Positions 54,698 through 54,872 of a stretch of DNA of 64,000 bases are shown piece after piece (position 1 is the stretch's first letter; the number at the start of each line of letters is the position of its first letter). The stretch covers positions 13,314 to 77,313 of the forward strand of contig CAZFJP010000015.1 in assembly GCA_964518965.1 (NCBI GenBank), written 5' to 3'. The notes beneath the pieces were generated by a model, which saw only the letters and a list, made by a program, of their open reading frames with translations, did no database searches and was not told where the DNA came from. The position numbers were made by a program, and so were the translations under genes. Origin of the DNA: an uncultured Candidatus Saccharibacteria bacterium. GTDB lineage: Bacteria > Patescibacteriota > SOKK01.

Positions 54698-54872
54698 GTG
54701 CCTTAACTTGAGGTGCCTCGCCAGTGAGCGGGGATTGCCCTTTGGAGAGAGGGCAGCGCTTTGTGCCGTATGGTACAGAGCGAACCGGGTACGATCAGTA
54801 CCTGGTGCAGGAGGGACTGCGGGGTTGGAGCTTTGCCCCGCCTTCATGGCGGGGCACTTCCCCCTCAAGAAA
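54698..54872 (+). ncRNA. GC-rich closed-stem structured element, candidate ncRNA (class unknown)
   Basis: About 175 nt with visibly higher GC than the flanks. The ends pair (cttgaggtgcc with ggcacttccccctcaag). Internal strong hairpin gccccgcc ttca tggcggggc (54835-54855). The overlapping minus-strand 72-aa ORF has implausible composition. Confidence 0.35.

What the first reader, a model, noticed from the sequence alone, without database searches (positions are those of the whole stretch)
54698..54872. About 175-nt GC-rich closed-stem element in an AT-rich intergenic region
GC content jumps to roughly 60% for about 175 nt between the MraY-like terminator and the next gene. The ends are complementary (cttgaggtgcc / ggcacttccccctcaag). 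A perfect 8-bp GC hairpin (gccccgcc-ttca-tggcggggc) and several other GC stems lie inside. The only ORF (minus strand, 72 aa) has non-protein-like composition.

Size and compact closed structure fit a stable small RNA (6S-like, riboswitch-like or novel) rather than coding sequence. A weak resemblance to SAM-I (GGAGGGACUG) was considered but the P1/CUUAUCAAGAG elements are absent.
Basis: seen in the sequence. Interest (0 to 1): 0.55.

Follow-up and report, generated by a model that had tools for sequence, protein, structure and literature searches.

The report
Conserved structured leader RNA, CPR bacterium

Summary
GC rises to 61% against about 38% in the flanks, and the + strand folds far better than shuffles (z = -6.9).

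Eight other loci carry an element in the same place: after a GT4/MraY-like gene and before a PsbP-like gene and a C39-like gene. They show a conserved core of about 100 nt, in four parts:
- a hairpin P1 (window 54677-54714), where 9 of 12 pairs show compensatory changes and the loop GCUUGGUG is invariant;
- an unpaired Shine-Dalgarno-like box, GGAGGGAC (54810-54817);
- an invariant GGGG/CCCC helix, P2;
- a hairpin P3, where all 7 pairs covary.

Nothing in Rfam 15 matches. The element is single-copy, specific to the + strand and has no conserved ORF. An invariant extended -10 promoter motif lies 7 nt before P1, and most lineages have no terminator before the next gene.

My best reading is a cis-acting 5' leader of the envelope operon, a new RNA motif. 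The mechanism is inferred, not shown: a 5' hairpin plus an orphan SD box that also appears at the ribosome-binding site of the third gene.

In passing, I found a second conserved structured RNA candidate of about 460 nt at roughly 52220-52680.

The parts
54559..54600 (+). Terminator-like hairpin and T-run ending the upstream GT4/MraY-like gene (stop codon at 54548-54550)
   Evidence: Read from the sequence: AGCACUUC pairs with GGAGUGCU, followed by TTTTTT. The scan tool did not call it because the loop is 21 nt. Comparable hairpin-plus-T-run sequences follow the GT4 gene in L001, L003, L009 and L012.
54662..54670 (+). Putative extended -10 promoter, TGnTAnnnT (TG at 54662-63, TACATT at 54665-70). 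The predicted transcription start is about G54677.
   Evidence: T73, G74, T76, A77 and T81 are invariant columns in the 8-sequence upstream alignment A10. The motif ends 7 nt before the first base of P1 in every lineage. The promoter function is inferred. The two-hexamer scan found no site here.
54677..54714 (+). P1 hairpin. The arms are 54677-54690 and 54701-54714. The loop is 54691-54700 (UUGCUUGGUG), and GCUUGGUG within it is invariant.
   Evidence: Of 12 aligned pairs, 98.9% of cells are paired and 9 pairs show changes on both sides. 0 of 500 shuffles reach this, and slid controls pair at 19-53%. 20 of 95 cells are G-U pairs, which would be mismatches on the - strand. Model R1 finds exactly one hit per syntenic locus.
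54715..54809 (+). Lineage-specific insert of four GC-rich hairpins: H1 54716-54733, H2 54736-54755, H3 54757-54782, H4 54784-54806.
   Evidence: The distance from the GCUUGGUG loop to the GAGGGAC box, which includes the 3' arm of P1, is 110 nt here, 56 in L001, 68 in L002, 58 in L009, 63 in L010, 20 in L012 and 16-17 in L003/L005/L008, where only UAAA lies between P1 and the box. H1 and H2 have counterparts in L001 only. The hairpins are not repeated elsewhere in the window or the related loci.
54810..54820 (+). Conserved unpaired box GGAGGGAC plus UGC. It resembles a Shine-Dalgarno sequence but has no conserved start codon ('orphan SD').
   Evidence: GAGGG and the final C are invariant in all 9 sequences. 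One base in between is G instead of A in L005. No start codon or small ORF is conserved after it. The same AGGGAC(U/C) box lies at the ribosome-binding site of gene 3 in all 6 lineages where that site is available.
54821..54864 (+). 3' domain. P2 is GGGG 54821-54824 paired with CCCC 54860-54863. An asymmetric internal loop follows (54825-54833 and 54857-54859). P3 is the hairpin 54834-54856.
   Evidence: All 7 aligned P3 pairs show changes on both sides, and 100% of cells are paired. RNAalifold predicts P3 independently. P2 is invariant, so it is conserved but not tested by covariation. Model R2 finds one hit per locus.
54865..54901 (+). Unconserved A/U-rich linker to the start codon of gene 2, with no terminator
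   Evidence: Sequences. The distance from CCCC to the start codon ranges from 8 to about 170 nt among lineages. No hairpin followed by a U-run occurs in the window, L001, L003, L010 or L012.
54902..55582 (+). Gene 2: a membrane-anchored protein with a PsbP/LpqN-like fold (226 aa). It is the gene that always follows the RNA.
   Evidence: It follows the RNA in all 8 other loci. The family is tiny: 7 proteins among 5.8 billion. The AlphaFold model has pLDDT 75, and Foldseek matches PsbP at E = 3e-6, as well as M. tuberculosis Apa and LpqN.
55654..55666 (+). Ribosome-binding site of gene 3 (C39-like peptidase-domain protein). It carries AGGGACU, with the likely true start ATG at 55664.
   Evidence: AGGGAC(U/C) lies 0-5 nt before the ATG in the window, L001, L002, L003, L010 and L012. 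L002 has C at the last position both in this site and in its RNA box.

Best explanation
The GC-rich block belongs to a conserved, structured, non-coding 5' leader RNA of a cell-envelope operon (a PsbP-like protein, then a C39-like protein) in a small clade of Patescibacteria.

The RNA appears to start at its own extended -10 promoter, so hairpin P1 sits at its very 5' end. Its conserved core is about 100 nt and has four parts:
- P1, with the invariant loop GCUUGGUG;
- an unpaired, start-codon-less Shine-Dalgarno-like box, (A)GGAGGGAC;
- helix P2 (GGGG/CCCC);
- hairpin P3.

In this genome four extra GC hairpins are inserted between P1 and the box.

The most likely mode of action is in cis. The 5'-terminal hairpin and the orphan SD box would act as a binding platform for 30S subunits, for a lineage-specific factor, or for both. 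The same factor would also recognise the AGGGACY box at the ribosome-binding site of gene 3. This binding would set the stability and translation of the operon mRNA, much like 5' stabilisers of the STAB-SD type in Gram-positive bacteria.

Shown: conservation, covariation, strand, single copy, synteny, absence of coding potential, and absence of any Rfam match.
Inferred: the promoter and transcription start, co-transcription with gene 2, and the whole mechanism.
For: - Synteny: the element lies between the GT4 gene and the PsbP-like gene in all 8 other loci recovered, which span GT4 identities of 63-83%.
- Covariation: P1 has 9 of 12 pairs with double changes and 98.9% of cells paired, with 0 of 500 shuffles reaching this. 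P3 covaries at 7 of 7 pairs.
- Strand: 20 of 95 P1 cells are G-U pairs.
- Copy number: there is one copy per locus. None occurs elsewhere in the 64 kb window or in the GT4-paralog loci L015 and L016.
- Promoter: an invariant TGnTAnnnT motif ends 7 nt before P1.
- Co-transcription: no terminator precedes gene 2 in 5 of 7 lineages.
- Orphan SD: AGGAGG or GAGG is conserved, but no start codon or small ORF follows it consistently. Gene 2 lacks an obvious SD of its own in most lineages.
- Shared box: AGGGAC(U/C) occurs at the gene-3 ribosome-binding site, and L002 has the C variant in both places. The box is rare at other ribosome-binding sites in the window.
Against: - There is no transcript data. 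The promoter, the 5' end and read-through into gene 2 are all inferred.
- A simple stabiliser would not need an invariant 8-nt hairpin loop or the invariant GAC and GGGG/CCCC.
- L002 and L009 carry extra strong hairpins after the core that could be 3' ends of a separate small RNA.
- The sharing of the box with the gene-3 ribosome-binding site rests on essentially one evolutionary event plus one U/C co-variation.
- Only about 6-7 independent lineages are available. P2 is invariant, so it is untested by covariation.
- Whether these organisms degrade mRNA from the 5' end with RNase J was not examined.
Confidence: 0.5

Rival explanations
1. It is an independent, stable small RNA, acting in trans or as part of a ribonucleoprotein. 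It would be made from its own promoter and merely sit next to the envelope genes.
For: - It has a putative promoter of its own.
- Its helices are GC-rich and very stable in an AT-rich genome.
- It tolerates inserted hairpins at several positions, as many stable RNAs do.
- L002 has a strong hairpin followed by an A/U-rich tract after the core, and L009 has about 135 nt of further structure.
- The unpaired loop and box are invariant and could contact a partner.
Against: - No terminator-like 3' end separates the core from gene 2 in the window, L001, L003, L010 or L012.
- Position and orientation directly upstream of one gene family are strictly conserved.
- No conserved complementary target was found for the P1 loop.
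- No Rfam family matches, 6S included.
Confidence: 0.2
2. It is a riboswitch. The invariant loop, the invariant box and P2/P3 would form a ligand-binding pocket that controls expression of the downstream genes.
For: - Invariant unpaired nucleotides are framed by covarying helices.
- It sits in a 5' UTR position on the same strand as the gene.
- It has the GC-rich intergenic signature typical of riboswitch discovery.
- It shares the string GGAGGGACUG with SAM-I aptamers. This comparison rests on sequence memory only.
Against: - No expression platform is conserved. There is no terminator, and no conserved helix sequesters gene 2's ribosome-binding site. The distance to the start codon varies from 8 to about 170 nt.
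- An insert of 4 to about 95 nt splits P1 from the rest.
- It occurs in a single gene context with no metabolic or transport gene that would hint at a ligand.
- No known aptamer model matches, even at E <= 10.
Confidence: 0.15
3. It is not an RNA element at all. It could be a DNA-level palindrome or operator, a remnant of a GC-rich foreign gene, or a small protein-coding gene.
For: - P1 is also an inverted repeat in the DNA.
- A gene caller annotated a 71-aa minus-strand ORF at this position in L001.
- ORFs of 43-72 aa overlap the region in the window.
Against: - The arms of P1 covary rather than being conserved in sequence, and many pairs are G-U, which is meaningful only in + strand RNA.
- Indels of 4 to about 110 nt destroy every ORF across lineages.
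- The insert hairpins match nothing else in the window or the related loci.
- The core is conserved in lineages whose flanking proteins are only 33-83% identical.
Confidence: 0.04

Closest known systems
STAB-SD and other 5' mRNA stabilisers of Gram-positive bacteria (leaders of cryIIIA, ermC and aprE)
   Same: A strong Shine-Dalgarno-like sequence lies in a 5' leader, far from and unconnected to any start codon. A hairpin sits at the predicted 5' end, and the leader runs into the downstream coding region. For the concept, see PMC3997798.
   Different: This element also has an invariant 8-nt hairpin loop, an invariant GAC after the SD core, and a conserved P2/P3 domain, none of which a plain stabiliser needs. 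There is no experimental evidence, it comes from a different phylum, and there is no sequence homology.
raiA-hairpin and raiA motif RNAs (Rfam RF03059 and the raiA family)
   Same: There is a weak cmscan match (15.7 bits, E = 2.9) to the raiA-hairpin flanks, CCUGGUGCA..AGGGA. Both are GC-rich, highly structured bacterial RNAs of unknown function, about 200 nt long, with variable sub-domains (PMC10861870).
   Different: The score is far below gathering (43.7 bits). The matched stretch, 54783-54816, lies mostly in the window-specific insert that other lineages lack. The full raiA model gives no hit at E <= 10. raiA occurs in Bacillota and Actinomycetota and has six helices and two pseudoknots.
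SAM-I riboswitch aptamer
   Same: It shares the string GGAGGGACUG.
   Different: There is no P1/four-way junction architecture and no match to any SAM family model at E <= 10. The downstream genes are unrelated to sulfur or methionine metabolism.
6S RNA
   Same: The size in this genome is similar (about 190 nt), and the GC-rich structure stands out in an AT-rich genome.
   Different: There is no conserved closing rod or central bubble. The length ranges from about 105 to 290 nt. No Rfam 6S model hits.
Orphan structured RNA motifs found in GC-rich intergenic regions (for example PMC8632094 and PMC8723152, listed)
   Same: The discovery signature is the same: a GC-rich, covarying intergenic element in an AT-rich genome with no assigned function.
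   Different: No published motif matches, and the distribution seen here is very narrow: 9 loci in one Patescibacteria clade.

Membership tests
raiA-hairpin (RF03059) | Score at or above the Rfam gathering threshold (43.7 bits) | tested here: not met
   15.7 bits, E = 2.9. There was no hit in homologous loci at E <= 0.1.
raiA-hairpin (RF03059) | The matched segment is conserved among homologs of the element | tested here: not met
   The match, 54783-54816, lies mostly in the variable insert, which is absent in L003, L005, L008 and L012.
raiA motif RNA | Six helices P1-P6, two pseudoknots and about 51 highly conserved positions (PMC10861870), detected by the Rfam model | tested here: not met
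   The raiA model gives no hit at E <= 10 in 54500-55000. The architecture found here is P1, a single-stranded box, then P2/P3.
SAM-I riboswitch | A four-way junction closed by P1, detected by the Rfam model | tested here: not met
   No SAM family hit at E <= 10. Only a 10-nt string is shared.
6S RNA | A long closed rod with a central bubble, conserved in relatives | tested here: not met
   The closing stem CTTGAGG/CCTCAAG is absent in all homologs. No Rfam hit.
Riboswitch (generic) | A conserved aptamer-like fold supported by covariation | tested here: met
   P1 and P3 covary, and the loop and box are invariant.
Riboswitch (generic) | An expression platform: a terminator or a helix occluding the ribosome-binding site, coupled to the aptamer | tested here: not met
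   No conserved terminator or RBS-occluding helix. The distance to the start codon ranges from 8 to about 170 nt.
Riboswitch (generic) | Specific ligand binding | not testable with these tools
   This needs in-line probing or an equivalent assay.
STAB-SD-type 5' stabiliser (a functional class, not a homology family) | An SD-complementary sequence in the leader that is not used for initiation | tested here: met
   GGAGG is present in 4 of the 7 lineages (window, L003 group, L009, L010) and GAGG in all. No conserved start codon or small ORF lies downstream.
STAB-SD-type 5' stabiliser (a functional class, not a homology family) | The element lies within the transcribed 5' UTR of the stabilised mRNA | tested here: inconclusive
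   An invariant extended -10 motif lies 7 nt before P1, and most lineages have no terminator before gene 2. There is no transcript data.
STAB-SD-type 5' stabiliser (a functional class, not a homology family) | 30S binding and increased mRNA half-life | not testable with these tools
   This needs toeprinting and half-life assays.

The most novel reading that the evidence does not exclude
The leader is one half of a previously undescribed RNA circuit that controls envelope genes in CPR bacteria. Its unpaired AGGGACY box would mimic the ribosome-binding site of gene 3. That would let it compete for a translational repressor: either an unknown protein, or the invariant C-rich loop (CUCUCCCCCU) of the conserved structured RNA of about 460 nt found 2 kb upstream. 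The invariant P1 loop would provide a second, specific contact.
Probability: 0.12. Interest if true: 0.7.

Novelty: new variant of a known kind. Interest (0 to 1): 0.45.

Why it matters
Few structured regulatory RNAs are known from the Candidate Phyla Radiation (Patescibacteria). These bacteria are uncultivated, have reduced genomes, and their gene regulation is largely unexplored.

This element is a covariation-supported RNA motif with no Rfam match. It has a compact minimal form of about 105 nt (L003) that would suit biochemistry. Its position upstream of surface and envelope genes could give a first handle on post-transcriptional control in these organisms.

It also shows that the GC-rich hairpins that catch the eye in such a genome can be lineage-specific decorations, while the conserved core is smaller and partly outside the GC-rich block.

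The distribution seen here is narrow (9 loci) and the function is unknown, so the immediate impact is modest.

Tried and rejected
- **Rfam.** The whole window at gathering thresholds gave 0 hits. The region 54500-55000 at E <= 10 gave only chance-level hits: mir-3045, raiA-hairpin, MIMT1, DUF3800-XI and BsrG. Eight homologous loci at E <= 0.1 gave only terminator-like MicX hits elsewhere.
- **tRNA or tmRNA.** None in the window.
- **Repeat or mobile element.** There is no second copy of the box in the window. The models found no second copy of either domain. The insert hairpins are unique.
It is not conserved.
- **A small ORF after the SD-like box.** Not conserved. L001 and L010 have none, and the others encode peptides of 1, 13, 16 or 100 aa.
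- **A base-pairing partner for the invariant P1 loop.** I looked within the RNA and around gene 2's start. Only scattered 5-nt matches appeared, with no conserved position.
- **Pairing of GGAGGG with the CU-rich 3' strand.** It is possible in every lineage, but at different positions, and it competes with the covarying P3 or with P2. I did not adopt it.
- **boxA-like antitermination sequence in the 5' arm of P1.** UGCUCUUAGUUAG in L009 resembles boxA, a resemblance from memory. I rejected it because those positions covary as a stem.
- **T-box-like UGGN in the loop.** Rejected: there is no Stem I or specifier architecture and no aminoacyl-tRNA synthetase gene.
- **Wider homolog search.**
  - The genome and metagenome scans with the gene-2 protein profile added only L005.
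  - The gene-2 family has 7 members among 5.8 billion proteins.
  - Two pattern scans of viral contigs returned only chance matches, none with a P1 stem of 10 bp or more.
- **Other GC-rich spots in the window** (37.6 kb and 46.2 kb). They lie inside protein-coding genes and are unrelated.
- **Function of gene 2 from sequence libraries.** Nothing was found. Only the fold search was informative.

Full report
**The observation**

The window is an AT-rich genome of about 38% GC. Its GT4/MraY-like protein has its closest relatives in Patescibacteria (CPR) metagenome bins.

Between that gene (53414-54550, Pfam Glycos_transf_4) and a 226-aa ORF (54902-55582), GC rises to 0.61 over 54700-54849. The flanks are at 0.33-0.43.

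The + strand of 54690-54880 folds at -103.4 kcal/mol, against -73.1 +/- 4.4 for dinucleotide shuffles (z = -6.9). The - strand is weaker (z = -4.6).

The statement about a single ORF is inexact: four short ORFs overlap the region.

**Known families**

- Rfam 15 gives no hit at gathering thresholds anywhere in the 64 kb.
- A permissive scan of 54500-55000 gives only chance-level matches. The best of any relevance is raiA-hairpin, at 15.7 bits against a gathering score of 43.7 (E = 2.9).
- The same is true for eight homologous loci.
- There are no tRNA or tmRNA genes in the window.

**Comparative evidence**

I took close homologs of the GT4 protein and of the downstream protein and fetched their contigs. 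One further locus came from the genome-collection scan. The metagenome scan added nothing new.

This gave eight other loci with the same gene order: a 128-aa membrane protein, GT4, an intergenic region, a PsbP-like protein of about 226-242 aa, then a C39-like protein. The loci are L001, L002, L003 (identical to L004, L006 and L013), L005, L008, L009, L010 and L012. Their GT4 identity to the window is 63-83% where it was measured. L003, L005 and L008 are near-identical to each other, so there are about 6-7 independent lineages.

All of them carry a related intergenic element. It consists of:

1. **Hairpin P1**, with arms of 11-14 bp and a 10-13-nt loop containing the invariant GCUUGGUG.
2. **A variable segment** after P1: 4 nt in the L003 group and L012, about 43-57 nt in L001, L002, L009 and L010, and about 95 nt in the window (one search gives the loop-to-box distances).
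3. **A conserved unpaired box**, (A)GGAGGGAC, usually followed by UGC.
4. **GGGG, a 9-13-nt loop, hairpin P3 (variable in sequence and length), (U)CU(U), then CCCC.**

In the window these parts are:
- P1: 54677-54714
- insert: 54715-54809
- box: 54810-54820
- P2: 54821-54824 with 54860-54863
- P3: 54834-54856

**Structure tests**

MAFFT could not keep the helices in register. I therefore made structural alignments by hand and passed them through the alignment tool with gaps written as N (A4 and A7). In A7, the inner parts of three long P3 loops were trimmed or masked. One base outside all pairs was altered to hold the register.

- **P1:** 12 pairs, 98.9% of cells paired, 9 pairs with changes on both sides. 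0 of 500 shuffles reach the observed values, and slid controls pair at only 19-53%.
- **P3:** all 7 pairs have changes on both sides, with 100% of cells paired. RNAalifold predicts the same helix on an independent model-derived alignment.
- **P2:** GGGG/CCCC is invariant. It is conserved, but covariation says nothing for or against it.
- **Strand:** 20 of 95 P1 cells are G-U pairs. These would be A-C mismatches on the other strand, so the RNA is on the + strand, the same strand as the flanking genes.

Covariance models of the two domains each find exactly one hit per syntenic locus. They find nothing else in the 64 kb window and nothing in two control loci. The controls (L015, L016) carry a GT4 homolog of 51% identity in a different gene context.

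The 'closing stem' CTTGAGG/CCTCAAG exists only in this genome. CTTGAGG is the 3' arm of the conserved P1.

The four GC hairpins that make up most of the 175 nt are lineage-specific. Only the first two have counterparts, and only in L001. They are not repeated anywhere else.

The GC-rich block is therefore largely decoration on a smaller core that starts about 20 nt upstream of the reported coordinates.

**Transcription and coding**

The roughly 90 nt upstream of P1 are unusually well conserved for AT-rich spacer DNA. They contain invariant columns that spell TGnTAnnnT, an extended -10 motif. In the window this is TG at 54662-63 and TACATT at 54665-70.

In every lineage the motif ends 7 nt before the first base of P1. 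This predicts a transcript that begins with P1. It is an inference: the two-hexamer promoter scan found nothing here.

A terminator-like hairpin and T-run follow the GT4 stop codon, so the element is probably not part of the GT4 transcript.

Downstream of CCCC there is no hairpin-plus-U-run before gene 2 in the window, L001, L003, L010 or L012. L002 and L009 have additional hairpins there.

No start codon or peptide is conserved after the SD-like box. The indels exclude all longer ORFs.

**What it may do**

The element is strictly associated with the gene that follows it. That gene encodes a protein with an N-terminal transmembrane helix and a PsbP/LpqN-like fold:
- the model has pLDDT 75;
- Foldseek matches PsbP at E = 3e-6, and also M. 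tuberculosis Apa and LpqN;
- the family is tiny, with 7 proteins among 5.8 billion.

Two features suggest a cis-acting leader:

1. A hairpin at the predicted 5' end combined with a strong SD-like sequence that has no start codon. These are the two determinants known to stabilise mRNAs in Bacilli, the STAB-SD concept (PMC3997798).
2. The box shares AGGGAC(U/C) with the ribosome-binding site of gene 3 in all six lineages where that site is available.
   - In L003, 13 consecutive nucleotides are identical (UAAAGGAGGGACU).
   - L002 has the C variant in both places.
   - The box is uncommon at other ribosome-binding sites in the window.

This points to a shared binding partner: the 30S subunit or a specific factor.

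Against a plain stabiliser, the invariant loop GCUUGGUG and the invariant GAC and GGGG/CCCC demand a more specific role. I could not identify one. No conserved complementary partner of the loop was found.

A riboswitch is possible, but there is no expression platform and no informative gene context. A separate small RNA cannot be excluded without transcript data.

**Comparison with known families**

The element fails the tested membership criteria for raiA-hairpin, raiA, SAM-I and 6S. It resembles STAB-SD-type stabilisers in principle, not by homology. I class it as a new structured RNA motif of a known general kind: a 5' leader or orphan non-coding RNA.

**Limits**

- There are only 9 distinct sequences from about 6-7 lineages.
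- The structural alignments are hand-made.
The matches they returned lacked the P1 stem.
- There is no expression data.

**Seen in passing**

The gene-less gap at 51667-52950 contains DNA more conserved than the neighbouring proteins. It is up to 90-95% identical to L002 and L010 over 38-74 nt.

This stretch folds into a long multi-hairpin structure with 108 predicted pairs, 32 of them with compensatory changes. It has no Rfam match.

It looks like a second, larger conserved RNA at about 52220-52680 on the + strand, and it deserves its own study.

Noticed in passing
window about 52220-52680 (+), inside the gene-less gap 51667-52950. Homologs at L003 880-1339, L008 706-1166, L002 about 1100-1500, L010 about 1220-1600 and L001 about 1880-2340.: This is a second conserved, structured non-coding region of about 460 nt. 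Its DNA is more conserved than the flanking proteins: 90.5% over 74 nt and 94.7% over 38 nt against L002, whose GT4 is only 63% identical. RNAalifold predicts 108 pairs, 32 with compensatory changes. One long hairpin has an invariant C-rich loop, CUCUCCCCCU (about 52412-52421), and G-U pairs indicate the + strand. There is no Rfam match, and it is not a tmRNA. It may be more interesting than the finding itself.
   Followed up: partly
window 55654-55666; L003 4938-4953; L010 4437-4453; L001 about 5170-5188; L002 about 5270-5290; L012 about 3803-3818: The ribosome-binding site of the C39-like gene (gene 3) carries the same AGGGAC(U/C) box as the RNA core in all six lineages. In L003 and L010 it reads AAAGGAGGGACUAUG. 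In the window this implies that the true start is the ATG at 55664, not 55637.
   Followed up: partly
window 54590-54676 and homologous upstream regions (alignment A10): The AT-rich spacer upstream of the RNA is strongly conserved. Besides the TGnTAnnnT motif, it has repeated invariant TTTAAT/TTAAT boxes and, in most lineages, a GGGGATT box just after the GT4 terminator. These could be an UP-element or regulator sites.
   Followed up: no
window 54784-54806, compared with L002 4405-4428: Similar hairpins, CCRGGUAC...GUACCUGG, occur at different places in two lineages: inside the insert in the window, and after the core in L002. This suggests that GC hairpin modules were gained independently or moved.
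   Followed up: no
window 37353-37850 (-) and 46133-46633: These are two other GC-rich patches (58-59% GC). The first is a 165-aa ORF with a strong ribosome-binding site (AAAGGAGGGAU) and no Pfam match. The second lies within a C39-like protein gene (45322-46731, -). They are coding regions, unrelated to the RNA, and possibly acquired DNA.
   Followed up: partly
window 42438-43748 (-): The genes for YidC (60KD_IMP) and Jag/KhpB (KH plus R3H domains) are adjacent, as near the rnpA-rpmH locus of many bacteria. ARAGORN finds no tRNA gene anywhere in the 64 kb.
   Followed up: no
L001 4189-4404 (-): The public gene call of a 71-aa protein on the minus strand overlaps the RNA element. It is almost certainly a spurious ORF produced by the GC-rich structured RNA.
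   Followed up: yes
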